A stretch of DNA of 64,000 bases from Escherichia coli (GTDB lineage: Bacteria > Pseudomonadota > Gammaproteobacteria > Enterobacterales > Enterobacteriaceae). Within the stretch, counting starts at the first letter, position 1; each line of letters opens with the position of its first letter. Below are positions 51,934-64,000 of this stretch, piece after piece. Made by a program: the position numbers and the translations under genes. The stretch is from the NCBI RefSeq assembly GCF_009931435.1, contig NZ_CP043414.1. The stretch is one strand, 5' to 3'. The notes beneath the pieces are model-generated. The model was given only the letters and a program-made list of their open reading frames with translations, ran no database searches and was not told the origin of the DNA.

Positions 51934-52440
51934 ATGAACACAAAACAGTCTGTTGCTCAACTCGCCGTACCGCACCGCAAGCGCCTTTCATCCACTGTGG
52001 TGGTGGCGCTGTTACTTTGTGTGGTTGCTGGCGCGGTGATAATTAATGCCGCTGATTTTCCAGCAACTGCCATTGAAACGGATCCCGGTGCAAGTGCCTT
52101 CCCTACTTTCTATGCCTGCGCTCTGATTGTGCTCGCTGTCTTACTGGTGATACGCGATCTTTTGCTGGCAAAACCAGTCCCTTGCGCCAACGCACAGGAA
52201 AAACCGGCATTAAGGAAAACGGCAACAGGAATTGCGGCAACCGCGTTTTATATTGTGGCGATGAGCTACTGCGGTTATCTCGTTACTACTCCTGTTTTCC
52301 TCATCGTCATTATGACGTTGATGGGCTACAGGCGATGGGTACTCACTCCGGGTATTGCGCTGCTGTTAACGGCAATCCTCTGGTTGCTGTTTGTCGAAGC
52401 GTTACAGGTGCCATTGCCTGTCGGCACATTTTTCGAATAA
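51934..52440 (+). CDS. tctB: tripartite tricarboxylate transporter small membrane subunit (TctB-like)
   Basis: 168-aa 4-TM protein between tctC-like and tctA-like genes. Confidence 0.7.
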   Translation: MNTKQSVAQLAVPHRKRLSSTVVVALLLCVVAGAVIINAADFPATAIETDPGASAFPTFYACALIVLAVLLVIRDLLLAKPVPCANAQEKPALRKTATGIAATAFYIVAMSYCGYLVTTPVFLIVIMTLMGYRRWVLTPGIALLLTAILWLLFVEALQVPLPVGTFFE

Positions 52441-52452
52441 CAGGGGCCTGCA

Positions 52453-53943
52453 ATGTTTGAAAGTGAACTTTTAACTCAGGGGTTTTCGACATTACTCAGT
52501 AATCCTCAGGCGCTGCTGTTTGCCACGTTTGGAGTGATGCTGGGTATTATGATTGGCGCTCTGCCTGGCCTGACAGCGACCATGGGTGTGGCGATTTTGC
52601 TGCCTTTCACCTACGGCATGGAGCCTGTTTCTGGCTTGTTGATGATTTGCGGTGTCTTTTTTGGTGGTGTGTATGGTGGTTCTATCACCGCAATTTTGCT
52701 CAAAATTCCCGGTACACCTGCCGCCGCTGCCACCGCCATTGACGGTTATGAGTTAACGAAGCAGGGAAAAGCCGGGCTGGCATTAAGTGCCGCCACGTTC
52801 TCTTCTTTTAGCGGTGGAACGCTCAGCATTATCGTATTGATGTTTCTCTCTCCGGTCCTTGCTAGTTGGGCGTTGAAATTTAGTGCCTCGGAGTCCTTCG
52901 CCCTGGCAACCTTCGGACTGAGCATTATTGCCAGTATTTCCGGTGAGTCGCTGATTAAAGGGCTGATCGCCGGGATTGGCGGATTAATGATCGCAACGAT
53001 AGGCCTCGATCCGATGGGCGGTTTTCCACGCTTTACGGGCGGGTTTGTGGAACTGATGAATGTGCCATTTATCCCGGTGATGATTGGTCTGTTTGCTGCT
53101 TCAGAAGCGTTCCGTTCTATGGAACAAAATCAGCATATTCGTCAGAGCGCGAACGTGGCTATCGGCAGTCTGTTACTGCCCTGGCAAACGCTACGCCGCA
53201 TCGCATTAACCATTTTGCGCTCATCAGGATTAGGGGTTTTTATCGGCATGATCCCCGGTGCGGGGGCAGATATTGCAGCTTTTGTTGCCTATAACGAAAC
53301 TCGTCGTTTCAGTAAGACGCCTGAAAACTTTGGTAAGGGTGAGATTAAGGCGGTGGCCTCCTGTGAGGCAGGCGCGAATGGCTGCACCGGTGGCGCATTG
53401 TTACCTATGCTGACGTTGGGGATCCCAGGCGATGCGGTAACTGCCATCATGCTGGGCGCGTTAACGTTACAAGGGATGCAGCCAGGCCCACTGATGTTTA
53501 CCGACCACGGCGATATGGTTTATACGTTATTTGTCGGCATGATCTTCTGTTACTTCATGCTGCTAGTTCTTGGACTGCTCTCTTTGAAAGTCATCGGTAA
53601 CGTGGTGAAAATTCCCGGCAATATTCTCACACCGATGATCCTCGCACTTTGTGTGGTCGGGACTTATGCGTTGAACAATAGCCTGTTTGATGTTGGCATT
53701 ATGCTGATTGCAGGCGTGGTGGGCTATTTCATGCAAAAAGGGGGATATCCGGCATCACCCGTAGTGCTGGCATTGATTATGGGGCCAATGGCGGAAAGTA
53801 ATTTTCGCCGTGCGCTGTCGCTTTCAGGGGGGTCACTCGACTTCCTGTATACCCGACCGATAACCCTGGCATTGCTGACACTGGCAGCCTTTACGCTACT
53901 GACGCCAATAATACGCAAAATTATGCGCTTACGGCGTCAGTAA
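52453..53943 (+). CDS. tctA: tripartite tricarboxylate transporter large permease subunit (TctA-like)
   Basis: 496-aa polytopic membrane protein with duplicated GxPGxxA / IPGxPA-type motifs. Confidence 0.85.
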   Translation: MFESELLTQGFSTLLSNPQALLFATFGVMLGIMIGALPGLTATMGVAILLPFTYGMEPVSGLLMICGVFFGGVYGGSITAILLKIPGTPAAAATAIDGYELTKQGKAGLALSAATFSSFSGGTLSIIVLMFLSPVLASWALKFSASESFALATFGLSIIASISGESLIKGLIAGIGGLMIATIGLDPMGGFPRFTGGFVELMNVPFIPVMIGLFAASEAFRSMEQNQHIRQSANVAIGSLLLPWQTLRRIALTILRSSGLGVFIGMIPGAGADIAAFVAYNETRRFSKTPENFGKGEIKAVASCEAGANGCTGGALLPMLTLGIPGDAVTAIMLGALTLQGMQPGPLMFTDHGDMVYTLFVGMIFCYFMLLVLGLLSLKVIGNVVKIPGNILTPMILALCVVGTYALNNSLFDVGIMLIAGVVGYFMQKGGYPASPVVLALIMGPMAESNFRRALSLSGGSLDFLYTRPITLALLTLAAFTLLTPIIRKIMRLRRQ

Positions 53944-56245: not shown

Positions 56246-56914
56246 ATGACGCAATCCATTTTTCAGGCTCAACCCTTTGAATTACCTTTTGATCCGCGCA
56301 CAACTGCACTGGTCATGATCGACATGCAGCGTGACTTTGTCGAAGCAGGGGGCTTCGGTGAGGCACTGGGCAATGATGTTTCACTGGTACGCACGGCTAT
56401 CGCACCATGTACAGAGGTGCTGGCAGCCGCACGTCAAAAAGGAATTATGGTTATTCATACTCGTGAAGGCCATCGTGCAGACTTAAGCGACTGCCCGCCA
56501 GCCAAACTGACGCGCGGCGGAAAAACCTTTATTGGTGAACCAGGACCGATGGGACGCATTCTGGTCAGAGGTGAAGCGGGTCATGACATCATTCCTGAAC
56601 TGTACCCAGTGACAGGCGAACCGGTGATTGATAAGCCCGGTAAAGGCGCTTTTTATCAAACCGACTTACATCTGATTTTGCAAAACCACGGTATCAAGAC
56701 GCTGATAGTTTGTGGTGTAACAACCGAAGTTTGCGTAACCACCACCGTGCGCGAAGCAAATGACCGTGGCTATGAATGCATTATCCCGGAAGATTGTGTC
56801 GGCTCATATTTCCCGGAATTCCAGAAATATGCCCTCGAGATGATCAAAGCACAAGGTGCCATTTTCGGTTGGGTGAGTGATTCCAAAGCCATTATTGCAG
56901 GTCTGGAAGGCTAA
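56246..56914 (+). CDS. isochorismatase-family cysteine hydrolase (RutB/BiuH-like amidohydrolase)
   Basis: 222 aa; D-K-C triad context (ALVMIDMQRDF, DKPGKGAF, VCGVTTEVC) and a C-terminal FGWVSDS block resembling RutB as I recall it. Confidence 0.75.
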   Translation: MTQSIFQAQPFELPFDPRTTALVMIDMQRDFVEAGGFGEALGNDVSLVRTAIAPCTEVLAAARQKGIMVIHTREGHRADLSDCPPAKLTRGGKTFIGEPGPMGRILVRGEAGHDIIPELYPVTGEPVIDKPGKGAFYQTDLHLILQNHGIKTLIVCGVTTEVCVTTTVREANDRGYECIIPEDCVGSYFPEFQKYALEMIKAQGAIFGWVSDSKAIIAGLEG

Positions 56915-56919
56915 CGCCG

Positions 56920-57780
56920 ATGGTACAGGTGACGCTTTGCGCATCATCGTTGGGATATCTTTTCCCGCAAAATGAAACGCAAGATTTACGTCTGCATAGT
57001 GCTTTTAAACATGCGGTAAATCTGTATTCAGAAGCGGGAACATTCATCACTCTGTTGTGTGCGCAAACGTATCTGAATCTCCCTGATGCCGCCAGAGTCA
57101 ACCTGCCTGAGAATTGGGACTGGCGAAGAGAGATTGCCCATTCAGATCCCATTCAGTTAACCCCAGGCTTGTTACAAACACCTCGCTTTTGCGTGGTGCT
57201 TCATAACACAACACTTTGGCAACCGCCATTTGTGGGGGGAATGCTGACACTTGAGGCATTCCCTTTGGTTTTCCAGCACTACCCAACGATGGCATCGCAA
57301 CGGCTTTTATTTTGTCTGGAGCATAACGTTCAAAGCACATTGCACCTGCCGGATAGTCTCACGCACCAGGGATTAGCGATTATGGAACATCCAGATGCAC
57401 TGGAACGCCAGGTGCCACAACTGATCGGCTTTGGTAAAGGCTTAACGCCCGATGGAGATGACTATTTGTTGGGCTATCTGGCAGCGCTCTGGTTATGGCA
57501 ACTCCCTGCAACACTTGCCGATCATCAATACCGGTTGCAGCAGGCAATTGATCAACATGCGCACAACACCACGGATATCAGTCGTCATTATCTGGAGCGT
57601 GCGCTTCAGGGGCATTTTTCAGAACCGATTTGCCAGTTACTCGCACAACTGGTTGGGGGCGCATCGGAAATGACAATCGCATCCTGTGCAGAACAGGTCA
57701 TGCAATTTGGCGCAACGTCAGGAGTAGATTGCCTTGCAGGAATGCTGCATGGCTTTCGAACCCTGAACACCATGAATTGA
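56920..57780 (+). CDS. DUF2877-like protein (YlbF/YahE-like putative carbamoyltransferase subunit)
   Basis: 286 aa, 6 bp after the hydrolase gene; GFGKGLTPDGDDYLLG motif; assignment to DUF2877 is from memory of the LTPxGDD signature and the conserved position next to FdrA-like/DUF1116 genes. Confidence 0.55.
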   Translation: MVQVTLCASSLGYLFPQNETQDLRLHSAFKHAVNLYSEAGTFITLLCAQTYLNLPDAARVNLPENWDWRREIAHSDPIQLTPGLLQTPRFCVVLHNTTLWQPPFVGGMLTLEAFPLVFQHYPTMASQRLLFCLEHNVQSTLHLPDSLTHQGLAIMEHPDALERQVPQLIGFGKGLTPDGDDYLLGYLAALWLWQLPATLADHQYRLQQAIDQHAHNTTDISRHYLERALQGHFSEPICQLLAQLVGGASEMTIASCAEQVMQFGATSGVDCLAGMLHGFRTLNTMN

Positions 57781-57874
57781 TTTCAACCTTTTCTCCCGTA
57801 GCCCATTTATGGCGCTACACGGGGATGCTTTGCCCGAATTTTGCTATCGGGCGGAATAAAACAGGCGTAACAGC

Positions 57875-59434
57875 ATGAAAGTTAAATATAAAGTTTTCAG
57901 CAATCTTTATCAGGACTCGGTTTCTCTGATGCAGATTTCCGCGCAAATCAGTAAGTTGCCCGGTATTCAACAGGCCTCGGTCGTCATGGGAACACCCAAT
58001 AATCTCGAACAATTGCGCGATGCGGGTCTGGGTAACGAAATCAACGCCAGTCCCAATGATTTAGTGATTGCAGTCATGGGTGAAGAAGATATTTGCAATG
58101 AAGCACTGATACTGGCCCAGCAACGTCTGACCAGCAAACCCGATGATGAAACGGATAGTGGCATTAAAACACCGGAAAATGTCAGCCTGGAAATGGCACT
58201 GGAAGCCGACACCGAAGCCAACCTGGCACTCATTTCTGTACCGGGAGACTACGCCGCCGCCGAAGCAATTAAAGCGTTAAACCTCGGAATGAACGTGATG
58301 ATGTTCAGCGATAACGTCAGTATCGGGCAGGAAAAATCCATCAAAACACTTGCCCGAGAACGTCAGCGCATCGTAATGGGACCTGATTGTGGAACCGCCA
58401 TTGTTAACGGCATTCCGTTAGGCTTCGCTAATGTGGTGAAACGCGGAGCAATTGGTGTTATTGGCGCGTCAGGCACCGGGCTACAGGAAGTGACTTGCCG
58501 AATCGACCAGCTCGGAGCGGGTATTTCTCAGGCGTTGGGAACAGGCGGGCATGATCTCAGTGAAGAGATTGGTGGAATATCGATGCTCTTCGCTTTAGAT
58601 GCGCTGGCGCAAGACGATGAAACTCGCGTGATTGTGCTTATTTCAAAACCGCCTTCACCGATCGTTGCCCGGGCTATTCTGGAGCGCGCCGAGGCTTGTG
58701 GAAAACCCGTGGTGGTGAATTTCCTCGGTGCGAATCCGCATGATCTGGCACGTCCCAATATCACCGCTGCCGCCACACTTGCCAGCGCCGCAAATATCGC
58801 CGTGGCAGTACTGAATGATCAGCCACTTCCGACTGTCGAGACCGAGATTTCCTGCGACGATCTCACAATGTTACAAAACGCCTGCCAGCGTCTGCCAGCC
58901 CATCGCCAGGCGATACGCGGTGTTTTCGCCGGAGGAACCTTCTGTTACGAAGCGCAACTTATCTGCCAGCAAAAGGGATTCAGCGCCGCCTCCAATACGC
59001 CAGTTGCGGGTAATCGTACTCTGGCAAATATCTGGCAAAGCAAAGGTCACACGCTGATCGATATGGGCGACGATGATTTCACCCGTGGCAAACCGCATCC
59101 AATGATCGACCCGACTCTGCGCAATCAACGTCTGCTCAACGAACTCAACGACTCACACACTGCCGTCGTGTTATTCGACCTGGTACTTGGTTATGGCGCT
59201 TCCGCTACGCCTGCCAGCGAATTACTGGACCAACTTTCACACATCGACATGAATAACGCACCGTTGCTGATTGCGCACGTTTGCGGAACGGAAGCTGATC
59301 CGCAAATACGCAGTCAGCAGATAAGCGCACTACAAAATGCGGGCATCATCATTGCCAGCAGCAATGCACAGGCGGCGCTATGGGCCAGCGCCGTTGCGCA
59401 GACTCAGTTGCAGAAAAAGGGGCTAAACGCATGA
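57875..59434 (+). CDS. FdrA-like protein (CoA-binding/succinyl-CoA-synthetase-like fold)
   Basis: 519 aa; N-terminus YQDSVSLMQISAQISKLPGIQQASVVMGTPNN aligns with E. coli FdrA; internal NVMMFSDNV, MGPDCGT and VIGASGTG motifs. Confidence 0.8.
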   Translation: MKVKYKVFSNLYQDSVSLMQISAQISKLPGIQQASVVMGTPNNLEQLRDAGLGNEINASPNDLVIAVMGEEDICNEALILAQQRLTSKPDDETDSGIKTPENVSLEMALEADTEANLALISVPGDYAAAEAIKALNLGMNVMMFSDNVSIGQEKSIKTLARERQRIVMGPDCGTAIVNGIPLGFANVVKRGAIGVIGASGTGLQEVTCRIDQLGAGISQALGTGGHDLSEEIGGISMLFALDALAQDDETRVIVLISKPPSPIVARAILERAEACGKPVVVNFLGANPHDLARPNITAAATLASAANIAVAVLNDQPLPTVETEISCDDLTMLQNACQRLPAHRQAIRGVFAGGTFCYEAQLICQQKGFSAASNTPVAGNRTLANIWQSKGHTLIDMGDDDFTRGKPHPMIDPTLRNQRLLNELNDSHTAVVLFDLVLGYGASATPASELLDQLSHIDMNNAPLLIAHVCGTEADPQIRSQQISALQNAGIIIASSNAQAALWASAVAQTQLQKKGLNA

Positions 59435-60855
59435 ATACCTTATTTAATCAGCCTTTGAAGGTCGTGAACGCGGGACTACACAGTTTTGCTGACAATATTC
59501 AACATGCCGGGGGAAGCGCAATTGCACTCAACTGGCAGCCACCAGCACAAGGCGATATTGACGCTGGATTGGATCTGGCATCGTTGCTACGTCATCCACT
59601 AGTAGAAAATGCCAATCAAATCGCCATGACACGTTATCTCGAAGCACAACCCGTGCTGGTGGATGTCATGCTCGCTAAAGAGGCCATTCCAGCAATGGCT
59701 GAACAAAAACGTATTTTGCACTCTGGTCCGCCGATTGCCTGGGAAGAGATGTGTGGTCCGGTAAAAGGGGCGATTATTGGTGCCATGCTGTACGAAGGTT
59801 GGGCCACCAGCCAGCAAGACGCTGAAAACCAGATAAACACAGGCGAAATCGACCTTGCCCCTTGTCATCATTATCACGCGGTTGGACCAATGGCAGGCAT
59901 CATCAGCCCGTCGATGCCGTTATGGGTGGTAGAAAACAAAACCAACGGCCACCGTACTTTTAGCAATTTCAATGAAGGTCTGGGTAAGGTTCTCCGTTTT
60001 GGTGCCAATAACGATGAAGTTCTCAATCGTCTGGCCTGGATGCGCGATGAACTGGCACCGGCAATGAAAGCAGCAATCGCACAACACGGCGAGCTGGAAC
60101 TCAAGCCATTAATGGCGCAGGCGCTGCATATGGGGGATGAAGTTCATAACCGCAATGCTGCCGCTACCGGTTTGCTGATTAAGCGCCTGCTCCCGGCATT
60201 GCTGGCCTGCTCTATTCCACAGGAACATATCCAGCGCGTCGTGGCATTTATCACCAGTAACGATCACTTCTTCCTCAATCTGTCGATGGCTGCCTGTAAA
60301 GCGATGATGGATGCCGCCGCCAATGTACCGTTCAGTTCAATGGTTACGGTGATGGCGCGTAACGGGGTGAATTTTGGTATTCGGCTTTCCGGTACTGGCG
60401 ATCGCTGGTTCCAGGCTCCTGCCAATGCAGTTGAAGGTCTGTTCTTCCCCGGATTTGGCGTCGACGATGCCGCTGCTGACCTGGGTGATAGCGCAATTAC
60501 CGAAACCGCAGGTGTGGGTGGCTTCGCGATGGCGTCATCTCCAGCGATCGTCAAATTTGTGGGAGGCACCCCTGCCGATGCCACCAATAACAGCCGTAGG
60601 ATGCAAGCAATCACCCTCGGTGGTAACCCCGCATTTACACTTCCTGCCCTCAATTTTGCCCCCACCGCAGCAGGGATTGATGCGCGTAAAGTGACCGATC
60701 GCGGCATTTTACCGGTCATCAATACGGGTATCGCCCACAAACAAGCGGGGGTCGGGCAAATTGGTGCCGGGATCACCACTGCGCCGATGGCCTGTTTTGT
60801 CGCCGCTGTACGTGCACTGTCTGAGATCGTCGCAAAGGAGAACCATCATGGTTAA
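59431..60855 (+). CDS. DUF1116-family protein (YlbE/YahG-like)
   Basis: Start at MNTLFNQPLKV, overlapping the FdrA-like stop (ATGA); 474 aa; family call from memory. Confidence 0.7.
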   Translation: MNTLFNQPLKVVNAGLHSFADNIQHAGGSAIALNWQPPAQGDIDAGLDLASLLRHPLVENANQIAMTRYLEAQPVLVDVMLAKEAIPAMAEQKRILHSGPPIAWEEMCGPVKGAIIGAMLYEGWATSQQDAENQINTGEIDLAPCHHYHAVGPMAGIISPSMPLWVVENKTNGHRTFSNFNEGLGKVLRFGANNDEVLNRLAWMRDELAPAMKAAIAQHGELELKPLMAQALHMGDEVHNRNAAATGLLIKRLLPALLACSIPQEHIQRVVAFITSNDHFFLNLSMAACKAMMDAAANVPFSSMVTVMARNGVNFGIRLSGTGDRWFQAPANAVEGLFFPGFGVDDAAADLGDSAITETAGVGGFAMASSPAIVKFVGGTPADATNNSRRMQAITLGGNPAFTLPALNFAPTAAGIDARKVTDRGILPVINTGIAHKQAGVGQIGAGITTAPMACFVAAVRALSEIVAKENHHG

Positions 60856-61804
60856 GCCACTGGCTGTTGTCGCAGTTGGCGGCAATGCGCTCATTCAGGA
60901 CGAGCAACGCAATAGTATTCCCGATCAATATGTTGCAGTGATGGAAAGCGTGCAGCATATCGTTGATATGGTTGAAGCCGGATGGGACCTGGTGCTTACC
61001 CACGGTAATGGCCCGCAGGTGGGCTTTATTCTGCGCCGCTCTGAACTCGCCAGTAACGAAGTTTCTCCGGTTCCACTTGATTACGCCGTGGGTGATACAC
61101 AAGGTGCAATTGGCTACATGTTCCAGAAAGCGCTGCATAACGAATTGGCTCGCCGTGGCATAAACAAACCGGTAATTGCGCTGGTGACACAAACGCGAGT
61201 CTGCCCACATGACGATGCTTTCACCAGCCCCAGTAAACCGATTGGCGCGTTTCTCGATGAAGCAACGGCCCTACAACGCCAACAGCAACTCGGCTGGACG
61301 CTGATGGAGGACGCCGGGCGTGGTTGGCGGCGTACAGTTCCCTCTCCTGCGCCACTGGAAATTATTGAGCACGACACCATCGCTCACCTGGTGCGCCAGG
61401 GATATCTGGTTATTGCCTGCGGCGGTGGCGGTATTCCGGTGGTGCGAGACGGACAACAACTGAAAGGTGTGGAAGCCGTGATCGATAAAGATCTGGCCTC
61501 CGCGCTGCTCGCCAGTCAGTTAGGCGCAGATCTGCTGGTGATCCCCACCGGTGTAGAAAAAGTGGCGATTAACTTTGGTACACCACAACAACAGTGGCTC
61601 GACGCTATCAGCGTTGCCGAAGCGCAAACGCTGTTACGGGAAGGTCAGTTTGGTGTCGGCAGTATGCAGCCCAAAGTGGAAGCCATTGTTGATTTCATCA
61701 ATGCCAGCCAACAACAAGGCAAACAGGCCAGCGGCCTGATTACTTCACCGCAAACCATAAAAGCAGCCCTTTCGCATCAGAGCGGCACATGGATAACCCT
61801 TTAA
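60848..61804 (+). CDS. carbamate kinase
   Basis: 318 aa; VVAVGGNAL and THGNGPQVG amino-acid-kinase motifs; 8-bp overlap with the upstream gene. Confidence 0.85.
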   Translation: MVKPLAVVAVGGNALIQDEQRNSIPDQYVAVMESVQHIVDMVEAGWDLVLTHGNGPQVGFILRRSELASNEVSPVPLDYAVGDTQGAIGYMFQKALHNELARRGINKPVIALVTQTRVCPHDDAFTSPSKPIGAFLDEATALQRQQQLGWTLMEDAGRGWRRTVPSPAPLEIIEHDTIAHLVRQGYLVIACGGGGIPVVRDGQQLKGVEAVIDKDLASALLASQLGADLLVIPTGVEKVAINFGTPQQQWLDAISVAEAQTLLREGQFGVGSMQPKVEAIVDFINASQQQGKQASGLITSPQTIKAALSHQSGTWITL

Positions 61805-61820
61805 TTCTCTGGAGAACTCA

Positions 61821-62210
61821 ATGACTACAACACTTTTAGCCGTTAACGGAACGCTGATGCGTGGCCTGGAACTCAACCCAAATATGCAAAAAGCGGGCGG
61901 CATTTTTGTCCGTGAAGACCGAACTGACGCCCATTACAGGTTGTGGAGTATTAACGATCGTCATCCGGGAATGATTCGCGTGAATGAAGGAGGAACACAC
62001 GTCGACGTAGAAATTTGGCAATTACCACTGACCAGTTTTGCCGCTCTGTTAATGAGCGAACCCGCTGGGCTGGCAATTGGCAAAATCAAACTTGCCGATG
62101 GTAGCGAAGTGCTGGGCGTACTGGCAGAAAACTGGCTGACCGAAGGCCAACGGGAAATTACAGAACTGGGTAGCTGGCGCAAATACACCGGGCATTTTCA
62201 TACTGTGTAA
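61821..62210 (+). CDS. small cytoplasmic protein of unknown function (possibly GGCT/AIG2-like or allophanate-hydrolase C-terminal-domain-like)
   Basis: 129 aa, no TM segment; NGTLMRG near the N-terminus weakly resembles the YGSL(x)RG motif of gamma-glutamyl cyclotransferase-like folds. Confidence 0.45.
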   Translation: MTTTLLAVNGTLMRGLELNPNMQKAGGIFVREDRTDAHYRLWSINDRHPGMIRVNEGGTHVDVEIWQLPLTSFAALLMSEPAGLAIGKIKLADGSEVLGVLAENWLTEGQREITELGSWRKYTGHFHTV

Positions 62211-62235
62211 CGCGCATTTTTAAAGGGAACATACT

Positions 62236-63459
62236 ATGCGTAAAAAAGAAGAGAATCTGAATACAGCATCAGGATTGCGTATTGCCATGATTTTACTGGG
62301 TATTGCCGTCACACCTGTGCTGTTGTCATCCTCAAGCCTCGGCAATCAACTTTCCAGCGGCAGTTTAATTAGCGTCGTATTGTTAGGCGGCGTCATTCTG
62401 ACCTTACTTTCAGCCATCACCATTAGCGTGGGAGAAAAAGCCCGCCTGCCAACGTATGGCATTGTGAAATATTCGTTTGGCGAAAAAGGGGCCATCGCCA
62501 TTAACATTTTGATGGCGATAAGTCTGTTCGGCTGGATTGCCGTTACCGCCAATATGTTTGGTCATTCGGTACATGACTTACTGGCTCAACATGGACTGGA
62601 AGTTCCACTAGCACTGTTAGTGGCTGCTGGCTGTGTCATTTTTGTCGCCTCTACAGCATTTGGTTTTGCCGTTCTGGGAAAAATTGCCCAGGTTGCCGTG
62701 CCGGTTATCGCGCTGGTGCTGTGTTACATCCTCTATGTGGCAACCCATACCGAAGTGGCAGCACCAGCGGTGATTGTGGAGATGAATACGGGTGTCGCTG
62801 TTTCCACCGTTGTTGGCACCATTATTGTGCTGGTTGCCACACTGCCTGATTTCGGTAGTTTTGTGCATAACCGCAAACATGCGCTGATTGCCGCAGGCGT
62901 GACGTTTCTGGTTGCCTACCCTCTGCTCTACTGGGCGGGAGCAACGCCGAGCGCCATTAGTGGTCAGGGATCTTTACTGGGTGCGATGGCGGTATTCGGT
63001 GCGGTTCTGCCCGCGGCGCTGTTGTTGATTTTCGCCTGCGTCACCGGTAACGCGGGCAATATGTTCCAGGGCACGCTGGTGGTTTCCACACTGCTTACCC
63101 ACTTTCCCAAATGGCAGATTACCGTGGCGCTGGGTATCCTTTCCGCCATCGTAGGCAGTCTGGATATTATGGCGTGGTTTATTCCGTTTCTGCTGTTCCT
63201 GGGTATCGCCACGCCACCCGTTGCCGGAATTTATATCGCTGACTTTTTCCTTTATCGCCGTAATGGCTATCAAGAGTCAGTGTTAGCCCAGGAGTCACAG
63301 ATCAAAGTGCTGACATTCGCAGCATGGATCATAGGTGCAGCGGTTGGCTTTATGACCGTAAAAGGCTTATTCACCCTGACGACAATCCCTTCGGTAGACT
63401 CGATTCTGGTGGCATGTATCGCGTATGCGATTCTCAGTCGGGCAAGTCAACGCCGCTAA
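62236..63459 (+). CDS. NCS1-family nucleobase permease (CodB-like)
   Basis: 407-aa polytopic protein; C-terminal ATPPVAGIYIADFFLYRRNG resembles CodB AIPPVGGVIIADYLMNRR. Confidence 0.8.
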   Translation: MRKKEENLNTASGLRIAMILLGIAVTPVLLSSSSLGNQLSSGSLISVVLLGGVILTLLSAITISVGEKARLPTYGIVKYSFGEKGAIAINILMAISLFGWIAVTANMFGHSVHDLLAQHGLEVPLALLVAAGCVIFVASTAFGFAVLGKIAQVAVPVIALVLCYILYVATHTEVAAPAVIVEMNTGVAVSTVVGTIIVLVATLPDFGSFVHNRKHALIAAGVTFLVAYPLLYWAGATPSAISGQGSLLGAMAVFGAVLPAALLLIFACVTGNAGNMFQGTLVVSTLLTHFPKWQITVALGILSAIVGSLDIMAWFIPFLLFLGIATPPVAGIYIADFFLYRRNGYQESVLAQESQIKVLTFAAWIIGAAVGFMTVKGLFTLTTIPSVDSILVACIAYAILSRASQRR

Positions 63460-63536
63460 TTCCTGGGTATACTCAGGCAATGATTACGGCTGAATCTGGA
63501 GAGATTCAGCCACTTTACCACTGACCAGGGAGCCTT

Positions 63537-64000
63537 ATGTTCATCTCAGACGAAACGCTTCGTGTTATTCATCTGGTCGCCAGACACCAGAGCATTACCA
63601 CCGCAGCCGAACAGTTAAATAAAGTCCCTTCCGCCATCAGTTACACCATCAAGAAAGTGGAAGAGAGCCTGGGCGTTGAACTGTTCATTCGTAAGGGACG
63701 CTATATTGAATTATCTCCGGCGGGGAGTTACTTCATCGAACATAGCAAAACTATTCTGGGCGACCTGGAAGCATTAAAGCGCAACACAGTGCTGATTCAC
63801 GATGGTATTGAACGTGAACTGACAATTGCGGTGAACAATATTATTCCTGGTGATTTGCTGGTGGCATTTATTCGAGATTTTGAACGGCAATTCACATCAA
63901 CAACACTGACGGTAGATCTTGAGGTATACAACGGCTGCTGGGATGCGCTGTACAGTAAGCGTGCTGATCTGGTCTACGGTGCTCCTCATGCAGTGCCAAG
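63537..64000 (+). CDS. LysR-family transcriptional regulator, 5' part (continues beyond window)
   Basis: N-terminal HTH (LRVIHLVARHQSITTAAEQLNKVPSAISYTIKKVEESLGVELF); not MetR by sequence. Confidence 0.8.
   Translation, partial: MFISDETLRVIHLVARHQSITTAAEQLNKVPSAISYTIKKVEESLGVELFIRKGRYIELSPAGSYFIEHSKTILGDLEALKRNTVLIHDGIERELTIAVNNIIPGDLLVAFIRDFERQFTSTTLTVDLEVYNGCWDALYSKRADLVYGAPHAVP

What the first reader, a model, noticed from the sequence alone, without database searches (positions are those of the whole stretch)
61821..62210. Orphan 129-aa protein embedded in the operon
A small soluble protein with no confidently recognisable family lies between the carbamate kinase and the permease, 16 bp after the kinase stop. 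Its position implies a pathway role, possibly handling an unstable carbamate or N-carboxy intermediate. The GGCT-like assignment is weak.
Basis: inference. Interest (0 to 1): 0.45.

Follow-up and report, generated by a model that had tools for sequence, protein, structure and literature searches.

The report
Stand-alone allophanate-hydrolase C-domain protein (c4763)
The "orphan" 129-residue protein is the already crystallised E. coli protein c4763, a free-standing copy of the C-terminal domain of allophanate hydrolase, and it is a fixed part of a widespread seven-gene cassette that most likely breaks down triuret-type nitrogen compounds.

Summary
The ORF at 61821-62210 (+) is real: it has an ATG start, a GGAG ribosome-binding site and lies 16 nt after the carbamate kinase stop. 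Its dN/dS against orthologues is 0.04-0.11.

It is not an orphan. It matches Pfam PF21986 (AH_C, allophanate hydrolase C-terminal domain) at E=2.7e-41. It is 128/129 identical to PDB 5c5z ("c4763, a uropathogenic E. coli-specific protein"), and NCBI names it "allophanate hydrolase-related protein". The fold is GGCT-like.

New here:
- **Subfamily.** It belongs to a distinct "type A" subfamily (motif V-N-G-T-L-M-R-G). The His that is invariant in true allophanate hydrolase C-domains is Leu here.
- **Partner enzyme.** Type A is almost always next to a cysteine hydrolase of the TrtA/BiuH (triuret/biuret hydrolase) clade. In green algae it is fused to one.
- **This cassette.** The hydrolase carries all six TrtA-specific residues. 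It is followed by a divergent AllH/F/G carbamoyltransferase paralogue, carbamate kinase, AH_C and an NCS1 permease.

Best reading (inferred, untested): AH_C decarboxylates or otherwise processes the unstable N-carboxy ureide (carboxybiuret and/or allophanate) made by that hydrolase.

The parts
61821..62210 (+). Stand-alone AH_C domain protein, 129 aa (c4763 type, 'type A': V8-N9-G10-T11-L12-M13-R14-G15; conserved T35, Y39, D46, E64, E80)
   Evidence: Pfam PF21986 140.8 bits. 128/129 identical to PDB 5c5z. AF2 model pLDDT 94.4, and Foldseek TM 0.98 to 5c5z and 0.90 to the KlAH C-domain. Subfamily analysis. dN/dS 0.04-0.11.
61811..61814 (+). Shine-Dalgarno GGAG, 6 nt upstream of the ATG
   Evidence: Read directly from the sequence.
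56246..56914 (+). Isochorismatase-like cysteine hydrolase of TrtA (triuret hydrolase) type, 222 aa. Triad D26/K130/C163, with Q203.
   Evidence: Pfam Isochorismatase 161.9 bits. NCBIfam BiuH model 279.6 bits, below its 370 cut-off. The closest PDB entry is TrtA 6xix at 269 bits, ahead of BiuH at 239 and RutB at 106. All six TrtA-versus-BiuH discriminating positions are in the TrtA state, FNAEYI (positions taken from PMC7948467).
56920..57780 (+). AllH-like (DUF2877) subunit of an AllFGH-type carbamoyltransferase paralogue
   Evidence: Pfam PF11392 97.1 bits. About 33% identity to K-12 YlbF/AllH, over the C-terminal part only.
57875..59434 (+). AllF/FdrA-like subunit
   Evidence: NCBIfam FdrA 495 bits. 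41% identity to K-12 FdrA.
59431..60855 (+). AllG-like (DUF1116) subunit
   Evidence: Pfam PF06545 330 bits. 48% identity to K-12 YlbE.
60848..61804 (+). Carbamate kinase
   Evidence: NCBIfam TIGR00746 arcC 362.3 bits, above the 358.25 cut-off. 38% identity to K-12 YbcF/AllK.
62236..63459 (+). NCS1-family (CodB-like) permease, 407 aa; probable importer of the pathway substrate
   Evidence: Pfam PF02133. NCBIfam cytosine permease 146 bits, below the 326 cut-off.
63537..64000 (+). LysR-type regulator gene, cut by the window end
   Evidence: RefSeq annotation of the 99.6% identical locus L001, transferred by coordinates. LysR genes also flank the cassette in L002 and L003.

Best explanation
The ORF encodes c4763, a free-standing 'type A' member of the allophanate hydrolase C-terminal domain family (AH_C, GGCT-like fold). 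It is co-transcribed as the sixth gene of a conserved cassette. The cassette order is TrtA-type cysteine hydrolase, AllH/AllF/AllG-type carbamoyltransferase paralogue, carbamate kinase, AH_C and NCS1 permease, with a LysR regulator.

Proposed mechanism (inferred):
1. The permease imports triuret or a close analogue.
2. The TrtA-type hydrolase removes one terminal amide as NH3 and leaves an unstable N-carboxy ureide (carboxybiuret).
3. AH_C acts on this class of N-carboxy intermediate (carboxybiuret and/or the shorter allophanate). The most likely reaction is decarboxylation, the role played by the unrelated TrtB protein in known triuret clusters and proposed for the C-domain of yeast allophanate hydrolase.
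4. The AllFGH paralogue phosphorolyses the remaining N-acylurea to carbamoyl phosphate.
5. Carbamate kinase converts carbamoyl phosphate to ATP, CO2 and NH3.

Shown: identity, fold, subfamily, operon structure, conservation and the gene-fusion links to TrtA/BiuH. Inferred: the substrate, the decarboxylation chemistry and the order of steps.
For: **Family and structure.** PF21986 at E=2.7e-41; PDB 5c5z 128/129 identical; fold ranking.

**Cassette conservation.** Gene order is conserved in about 60 of 80 species loci across Enterobacterales, Burkholderiales, Neisseriales, Vibrionales, Dyella and Halomonas.

**Link to the hydrolase rather than to AllFG/CK.**
- Pseudovibrio splits the cassette into Iso-AHC-NCS1 and a divergent AllH-F-G-CK unit. 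Palleronia places Iso directly before AHC.
- Verrucomicrobia loci have TrtA-type + BiuH-type + AH_C with no AllFG/CK.
- All 73 cassette hydrolases carry the TrtA signature FNAEYI, identical to the crystallised TrtA 6xix.

**Rosetta-stone fusions.**
- AH_C-BiuH in at least 12 protein clusters, including Klebsormidium nitens and other streptophyte algae.
- Three-domain AH_C-BiuH-TrtA proteins with intact triads (P0271, P0282).
- BiuH-AH_C (P0132, P0289).
- CK-AH_C (P0125).

**Gap in the pathway.** No TrtB/AtzH-family gene fits in the cassette; all intergenic gaps are 94 nt or less. TrtB belongs to the AtzH/HpxZ family, not to AH_C. Carboxybiuret decays spontaneously with a half-life of about 20 min, and a dedicated decarboxylase exists elsewhere (PMC7948467).

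**Signs of catalysis.** Type A keeps polar residues N9, T11, R14, T35, Y39, D46, E64 and E80 at 87-100%. E64 aligns with the conserved Glu of the GGACT-family protein YtfP. dN/dS is 0.04-0.11.
Against: - No biochemical data exist for any type A protein. The c4763 paper could not be read here.
- The His that is invariant in genuine allophanate hydrolase C-domains is Leu12 in type A. The precedent for decarboxylation therefore may not transfer.
- For AtzF, removing the C-domain left amidase activity intact and only changed the oligomeric state (PMC3944691).
- If AH_C makes biuret or urea, urease-negative E. coli would lose half of the nitrogen, which sits oddly with the logic of AllFGH systems (PMC11326118).
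- The fusions are always to the BiuH-type domain, never to TrtA alone. The substrate could therefore be allophanate rather than carboxybiuret.
- The hhalign match to YtfP is weak (probability 9.5%).
Confidence: 0.45

Rival explanations
1. AH_C is a non-catalytic assembly or channelling subunit. It dimerises and docks the hydrolase, the AllFGH paralogue and/or the carbamate kinase, so that labile carboxybiuret or allophanate is passed on before it decarboxylates to dead-end biuret or urea.
For: [quoted passage not shown] Type A is found fused to different pathway enzymes: BiuH-type hydrolase, carbamate kinase, a ChrR-type cupin and DUF3810. The catalytic-looking His of the canonical C-domains is absent. 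Avoiding urea would make sense in urease-negative hosts.
Against: Conserved small polar residues and the retained GGCT-type G-[ST]-L loop and Glu look like a ligand site. A pure scaffold rarely keeps 66-90% identity across bacterial classes. It persists as a domain in algal fusion proteins, where tethering is already covalent.
Confidence: 0.2
2. AH_C does the same job as proposed for the C-domain of allophanate hydrolase, or acts specifically on allophanate. It would decarboxylate N-carboxycarbamate or allophanate at the end of the pathway, not carboxybiuret.
For: There is homology to allophanate hydrolase C-domains (E about 1e-11 to 4gyr and 4iss; TM 0.90). The fusions are directly to the BiuH-type domain, whose product is allophanate. 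A Verrucomicrobia locus has UreG immediately after AH_C, which fits allophanate to urea to urease. The gene sits after the carbamate kinase in most cassettes and is fused to it in P0125. From my own knowledge, Fan et al. 2013 (JBC 288:21422) proposed N-carboxycarbamate decarboxylation for the yeast C-domain.
Against: The cassette has no enzyme known to make N-carboxycarbamate; no amidase-signature domain was found in any of the 80 loci. The His invariant in canonical C-domains is replaced. Making urea is a dead end in E. coli. Free carbamate decays in well under a second, so it needs no enzyme (my own knowledge).
Confidence: 0.2
3. It is a gamma-glutamyl-cyclotransferase-type enzyme acting on an unrelated gamma-glutamyl or similar amide, and sits in this operon by accident.
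For: The fold is GGCT-like. Several type A relatives pass the Pfam GGACT threshold (P0138 at 82.9 bits, P0160 at 39.9 bits). The Glu is conserved.
Against: Synteny is fixed across at least five bacterial orders, and there are recurrent fusions to BiuH/TrtA. This protein itself fails the GGACT threshold. No gamma-glutamyl metabolism genes are nearby.
Confidence: 0.05

Closest known systems
c4763 of uropathogenic E. coli CFT073 (PDB 5c5z; Kim et al. 2015, Acta Cryst F 71:1042)
   Same: Essentially the same protein: 128/129 identical, TM 0.98, same length.
   Different: One substitution (T71 here, A in 5c5z). The paper's suggestion of a role in urea use (as quoted in PMC7558591) was based on fold similarity only, without the operon analysis. 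The label 'UPEC-specific' does not hold, because the cassette is in 1559 of 5426 complete E. coli genomes including B/BL21 and C.
C-terminal domain of allophanate hydrolase (AtzF, DUR1,2, K. lactis AH 4iss, G. bethesdensis AH 4gyr; Pfam PF21986)
   Same: Same Pfam family and fold. Shared conserved positions are V8, G10, G15, L18, T35, Y39, P49, G58, E64, P81, L84, G87, L91, G99, I113 and W119. Both are partnered with an amidohydrolase that converts a terminal ureide amide into an N-carboxylate.
   Different: This protein is free-standing rather than fused to an amidase-signature domain. It belongs to a different subfamily: the invariant His of the G-[AL]-H motif is Leu12, there are further switches at positions 44 and 83, and it has its own conserved N9, R14, D46 and E80. 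Its partner enzyme is an isochorismatase-fold cysteine hydrolase.
TrtB carboxybiuret decarboxylase (AtzH/HpxZ family) of the Herbaspirillum triuret/cyanuric acid pathway
   Same: It is a small protein (about 126 aligned positions in the trtB/atzH/hpxZ alignment) encoded next to trtA/biuH. The proposed reaction is the same, carboxybiuret to biuret plus CO2 (PMC7948467).
   Different: It belongs to a different protein family, so any functional equivalence would be by analogy, not homology. Activity is untested for AH_C.
AllFGH oxamic transcarbamylase plus AllK carbamate kinase of E. coli K-12 (PMC11326118, PMC9843812)
   Same: The neighbouring genes are homologues (41/48/33/38% identity). They presumably also turn an N-acylurea into carbamoyl phosphate and then ATP.
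   Different: The gene order differs (H-F-G-K here, F-G-H-K in K-12). The K-12 operon has no hydrolase, AH_C or permease. The substrate here is probably carboxybiuret, allophanate or biuret rather than oxalurate (inference).
GGCT/GGACT/AIG2/YtfP gamma-glutamyl cyclotransferase-like proteins (Pfam PF06094)
   Same: Same fold. There is a similar N-terminal G-[ST]-L-x-[RK]-G loop and a conserved Glu (E64 aligned to the GEVY Glu of YtfP).
   Different: Below the Pfam threshold (19.4 against 22.8). About 12-19% identity. The genomic context is ureide catabolism, not gamma-glutamyl catabolism.

Membership tests
Pfam PF21986 AH_C (allophanate hydrolase C-terminal domain) | HMM score at or above the gathering threshold (27 bits), with near full-length coverage of the model | tested here: met
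   140.8 bits, E=2.7e-41, residues 5-123 on model positions 2-122 of 123.
Pfam PF21986 AH_C (allophanate hydrolase C-terminal domain) | Same three-dimensional fold as the C-domain of solved allophanate hydrolases | tested here: met
   AF2 model (pLDDT 94.4) has TM 0.89-0.90 to 4iss, 4ist and 5i8i.
Allophanate hydrolase proper (EC 3.5.1.54; TIGR02713 / NF006043) | N-terminal amidase-signature domain, and a whole-protein score above the curated cut-off | tested here: not met
   99 and 103.8 bits against cut-offs of 511 and 487. Only model positions 440-563 and 472-595 align. No amidase-signature seed hit was found in any of the 80 related loci.
Canonical (type B) allophanate hydrolase C-domain | Invariant His in the N-terminal x-G-[AL]-H motif (100% of 45 representatives, and present in 4gyr and 4iss) | tested here: not met
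   Leu12 in the motif N-G-T-L; 98% Leu in the 53 type A representatives.
Glutamyl-tRNA amidotransferase (legacy database name of c4763 and 5c5z) | GatA amidase-signature domain, or GatB/GatC domains | tested here: not met
   No such Pfam or NCBIfam hit. The name is an annotation artefact inherited from full-length amidases.
GGCT/GGACT (Pfam PF06094) | HMM score at or above the gathering threshold (22.8 bits) | tested here: not met
   19.4 bits, E=0.0017. Some type A relatives do pass.
GGCT/GGACT (Pfam PF06094) | GGCT fold with a conserved catalytic Glu | tested here: inconclusive
   The fold match is confident (probability 1.0, TM 0.58-0.72). E64 aligns with the YtfP Glu, but the hhalign probability is only 9.5%. 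No residue-level structural superposition was available.
TrtB/AtzH/HpxZ decarboxylase family | Sequence homology to TrtB | not tested
   No TrtB sequence was at hand. The literature places TrtB with AtzH/HpxZ, and the NCBIfam scan of c4763 returned only allophanate hydrolase models.
TrtB/AtzH/HpxZ decarboxylase family | Carboxybiuret decarboxylase activity | not testable with these tools
   Requires an enzyme assay.
TrtA triuret hydrolase (for the partner gene 56246-56914) | Asp-Lys-Cys triad, Gln202, and the six residues that distinguish TrtA from BiuH (F35, N41, A134, E160, Y187, I205) | tested here: met
   D26/K130/C163, Q203 and FNAEYI, identical to 6xix. Enzyme activity is not testable here.

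The most novel reading that the evidence does not exclude
Type A AH_C proteins are a previously unrecognised enzyme class that decarboxylates N-carboxy ureides (carboxybiuret and/or allophanate), non-homologous to TrtB. The E. coli cassette would then be a complete triuret pathway that needs neither allophanate hydrolase (AtzF) nor BiuH. In it a second AllFGH-type carbamoyltransferase phosphorolyses the biuret-type intermediates, so that carbamate kinase makes ATP from them. This would give E. coli B/BL21, C and uropathogenic strains a way to use triuret, a uric-acid oxidation product reported in human urine.
Probability: 0.3. Interest if true: 0.65.

Novelty: already known. Interest (0 to 1): 0.4.

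Why it matters
The protein itself is not new; it has a Pfam family, a PDB entry and a RefSeq name. Its biochemical function has never been shown, and as of a 2026 paper (PMC12928451) the literature available here still describes the surrounding E. coli module as uncharacterised.

The analysis turns a vague "allophanate hydrolase-related" label into a concrete, cheap test. Common laboratory strains (BL21, C) carry the cassette and K-12 does not. Growth on triuret or biuret, and an NMR assay with purified c4763, would settle the question.

If confirmed, three things would follow:
- A function would be assigned to a domain whose role in allophanate hydrolase is disputed.
- A second substrate class would be defined for the recently discovered AllFGH carbamoyltransferases.
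- The repeated co-location of biuH/trtA with allFGHK in nitrifier genomes would be explained.

Tried and rejected
**Rejected readings**
- 'Orphan or no family': rejected by Pfam, PDB and RefSeq.
- The legacy name 'glutamyl-tRNA amidotransferase': rejected, because there is no amidase domain.
- Detached but otherwise canonical allophanate hydrolase C-domain: rejected, because the invariant His is Leu and the sequences form a separate subfamily.
- The hydrolase as RutB or a pyrimidine pathway (as guessed in PMC12928451): unlikely. RutB scores 106 bits against 269 for TrtA, and the TrtA signature is complete.
- The hydrolase as BiuH: below the NCBIfam cut-off (279.6 against 370), and all six discriminating residues are in the TrtA state.
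- The neighbouring AllFGH/CK genes as the canonical allantoin genes: rejected. They are 33-48% identical paralogues with a different gene order.
- AH_C as a carbamate decarboxylase: considered unlikely, because free carbamate decays in well under a second (my own knowledge).

**Dead ends**
- The c4763 paper (PMC4528939), Fan et al. 2013 (PMC3774409), Lin & St Maurice 2013 (PMC3568674) and Aukema et al. 2020 (PMC6952224) are not held.
- A search for 'N-carboxycarbamate' found no paper.
- P0132 and P0136 have no contig on record.
- Cyanobacterial stand-alone copies have no informative neighbours.
- The promoter/terminator scan gave nothing above chance.

Full report
**1. The observation.**
The window carries an ORF at 61821-62210 on the + strand, 129 codons long, with an ATG start and a TAA stop. 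The carbamate kinase gene ends at 61804, so the gap is 16 nt as reported. A GGAG lies at 61811-61814, 6 nt before the ATG. The next gene, a permease, starts 25 nt after the stop. There is no terminator-like hairpin on the + strand between kinase, ORF and permease. With overlapping or very short gaps upstream, the seven genes from 56246 to 63459 read as one operon.

The gene is clearly protein-coding. Against orthologues from another E. coli, Citrobacter, Buttiauxella and Budvicia, dN/dS is 0.04-0.11, while synonymous sites are nearly saturated.

**2. It is not an orphan.**
- Pfam PF21986, 'AH_C, allophanate hydrolase C-terminal domain', matches at 140.8 bits (cut-off 27, E=2.7e-41) over residues 5-123.
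- NCBIfam allophanate hydrolase models align only with their last ~120 positions and stay far below their whole-protein cut-offs.
- PDB 5c5z is 128/129 identical, differing only at T71A. It is titled 'Crystal structure analysis of c4763, a uropathogenic E. coli-specific protein' and was deposited under the misleading molecule name 'Glutamyl-tRNA amidotransferase'.
- The window is E. coli, 99.6% identical to strain R32_14_1F. RefSeq calls the gene 'allophanate hydrolase-related protein', WP_000214035.1.
- An AlphaFold model (pLDDT 94.4) matches 5c5z at TM 0.98 and the C-domain of K. lactis allophanate hydrolase / urea amidolyase at TM 0.89-0.90. It then matches GGCT-fold proteins: PH0828, YkqA, GGACT, GGCT and ChaC2.

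It is weak only for the Pfam GGACT model (19.4 against 22.8 bits).

**3. A separate subfamily.**
I took 98 AH_C domains from representatives of 50%-identity clusters and aligned them to a profile. They fall into two groups.

| | Type B | Type A |
|---|---|---|
| Number of domains | 45 | 53 |
| Members | Every full-length ~600-aa allophanate hydrolase | c4763, the stand-alone cassette proteins and all fusions to non-amidase partners |
| N-terminal motif | x-G-[AL]-H, with the His 100% conserved; also seen in 4gyr and 4iss | V-N-G-T-L-M-R-G, with Leu at the His position (98%) |
| Own conserved residues | P17, G50, P83, F100, C102, E103 | N9, T11, R14, S43, D46, M51, E80, G83 |

Both types share T35, Y39, P49, E64, W119 and a set of glycines and hydrophobic residues. 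By hhalign, E64 and Y39 align with the conserved Glu (GEVY motif) and Tyr of the E. coli GGACT-family protein YtfP, though the score is weak. c4763 is therefore not simply a detached canonical C-domain.

**4. Context in this window.**
| Coordinates | Product | Evidence |
|---|---|---|
| 56246-56914 | Isochorismatase-fold cysteine hydrolase | |
| 56920-57780 | AllH-like (DUF2877) | |
| 57875-59434 | AllF/FdrA-like | |
| 59431-60855 | AllG-like (DUF1116) | |
| 60848-61804 | Carbamate kinase | |
| 61821-62210 | AH_C | see sections 1-3 |
| 62236-63459 | NCS1 permease | |
| from ~63537 | LysR regulator, cut by the window end | |

The AllF/G/H/kinase set is only 41, 48, ~33 and 38% identical to the K-12 oxamic transcarbamylase AllFGH and AllK, and has a different gene order. 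It is a paralogous system with a probably different substrate.

The hydrolase is closest to the crystallised triuret hydrolase TrtA (6xix, 269 bits). Biuret hydrolases follow at ~235-239 bits and RutB at 106. It falls below the NCBIfam BiuH cut-off, at 279.6 against 370. Tassoulas et al. (PMC7948467) list six positions that distinguish TrtA from BiuH: F35/Y, N41/Y, A134/S, E160/D, Y187/T and I205/V. The window protein has the TrtA state at all six (F37, N43, A135, E161, Y188, I206). It also has the triad D26/K130/C163 and Q203.

**5. Context elsewhere.**
Stand-alone ~130-aa type A proteins are common: 4747 hits, with 66-90% identity across several proteobacterial orders. A scan of one genome per species found 543 genomes with a relative.

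In the 80 best loci, my phmmer survey gave the following:
- About 60 loci have the complete cassette in the same order.
- Pseudovibrio has Iso-AHC-NCS1 as one unit and AllH-F-G-CK as a divergent unit.
- Palleronia has Iso directly before AHC.
- Seven Verrucomicrobia-type loci have two hydrolase genes plus AH_C and no AllFG/CK.
- Four loci (three cyanobacterial and one Chthoniobacter) have AH_C alone.
- No amidase-signature gene was found in any locus.

All 73 hydrolases in AllFG/CK cassettes have the TrtA signature. The Verrucomicrobia loci have one TrtA-type and one BiuH-type hydrolase (YYSDTV). The BiuH-type gene of L070 passes the NCBIfam BiuH cut-off at 410.7 bits. In L070 and L075 these genes are accompanied by an ABC nucleoside-type transporter, a ChrR-type cupin, a conserved ~530-aa protein with no family hit and, in L070, UreG.

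A metagenomic contig (L005) has the kinase and AH_C fused, a UT-family urea transporter in place of NCS1, and no AllH.

**6. Fusions.**
Among cluster representatives and homologues, type A AH_C occurs in several fused architectures:
- AH_C-BiuH in at least 12 clusters, including Klebsormidium nitens, Chlorokybus and other streptophyte algae.
- Three-domain AH_C-BiuH-TrtA proteins with intact triads (P0271, P0282).
- BiuH-AH_C (P0132, P0289).
- Carbamate kinase-AH_C (P0125).
- BiuH-TrtA two-domain proteins also exist.

These fusions tie type A AH_C firmly to the triuret to biuret to allophanate pathway.

**7. Mechanism.**
*Established knowledge.* TrtA hydrolyses triuret to carboxybiuret. Carboxybiuret decarboxylates spontaneously with a half-life of about 20 min, or enzymatically through TrtB. 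BiuH then gives allophanate (PMC7948467). TrtB belongs to the AtzH/HpxZ family and is absent from the cassette. AllFGH phosphorolyses the N-acylurea oxalurate to carbamoyl phosphate, and AllK makes ATP from it (PMC11326118, PMC9843812). From my own knowledge, Fan et al. 2013 proposed that the yeast allophanate hydrolase C-domain decarboxylates N-carboxycarbamate. AtzF without its C-domain keeps amidase activity but changes oligomeric state (PMC3944691).

*Inference.* AH_C acts on the N-carboxy ureide produced by its partner hydrolase. Decarboxylation of carboxybiuret fills the only enzymatic gap between TrtA and BiuH, and it explains every context and fusion seen. Action on allophanate cannot be excluded. 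The AllFGH paralogue then phosphorolyses biuret, carboxybiuret or allophanate; I cannot say which.

*Rivals.* A non-catalytic assembly or channelling role; the canonical terminal N-carboxycarbamate or allophanate role; and an unrelated GGCT-type activity.

**8. What is known about the cassette.**
- A 2010 genome comparison lists c4760-c4780 as a UPEC block (PMC2831201).
- A 2026 paper on strain BEN2908 describes the module ('GR 29') as uncharacterised and guesses pyrimidine or carbamate nitrogen acquisition (PMC12928451).
- A 2025 study of nitrifier genomes noticed biuH/trtA next to allFGHK and codB, and read them as two separate pathways (PMC12625717).
- None of the papers held here assigns a function to the stand-alone AH_C beyond fold similarity.

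**9. Verdict.**
The ORF is real and belongs to the operon. The 'orphan' label is wrong, because the protein is already known structurally. The object is already known. The pathway-level reading is new, moderately interesting and easy to test.

Noticed in passing
window 56246-64000 (whole cassette): The cassette is accessory in E. coli. It is present in 1559 of 5426 complete genomes, including B/BL21 and C. 127 of 1628 placements are on plasmids. It sits between ysgA and metE.
   Followed up: partly
L063 7225-8814, L067 6974-8563, L070 6993-8576, L075 7984-9612, L083 7875-9479: A conserved ORF of about 530 aa with no Pfam or NCBIfam hit is wedged between the TrtA/BiuH genes and a ChrR-type cupin plus AH_C in Verrucomicrobia. 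In L070 a bona fide UreG (270 bits) follows AH_C, with no urease structural genes within the ~10 kb examined. This may be a new metal enzyme standing in for allophanate hydrolase.
   Followed up: partly
L005 1246-7300: A metagenomic variant of the cassette. Carbamate kinase and AH_C are fused into one 458-aa protein, a UT-family urea transporter replaces the NCS1 permease, and AllH is absent (only 89 nt between the hydrolase and AllF).
   Followed up: partly
P0136, P0205, P0271-P0290: Eukaryotic fusion proteins occur in streptophyte and other algae: AH_C-BiuH, AH_C-BiuH-TrtA and BiuH-TrtA. This implies that a triuret/biuret pathway of bacterial type exists in algae. In P0205 the TrtA-like domain has lost the Asp and Cys of the triad.
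   Followed up: partly
L015, L016 and L071: The locus labelled Chryseobacterium sp. 18061 gives the same match statistics as Citrobacter sp. 18056 from the same study, so it is probably contamination. The MAG labelled Klebsiella pneumoniae (L071) has the Verrucomicrobia-type gene order, so it is probably mis-binned.
   Followed up: no
window 51934-53943 and upstream (L001 1-3744): A tripartite tricarboxylate transporter (Bug-family binding protein, TctB, TctA) and 2-dehydro-3-deoxygalactonate kinase/aldolase genes lie upstream of udp. They are unrelated to the finding.
   Followed up: no
L022, L040, L044-L046, L050, L062, L068: AllH was not detected by phmmer in about eight otherwise complete cassettes. 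In Phytobacter, Kosakonia and Aeromonas it lies on the opposite strand upstream of the hydrolase. AllH may be dispensable, or too divergent for the seed.
   Followed up: no
window 61836-62021 (-) and 61961-62188 (-): Two antisense ORFs of 61 and 75 aa overlap the AH_C gene. Given the strong purifying selection on the + strand frame, they are most likely spurious.
   Followed up: no
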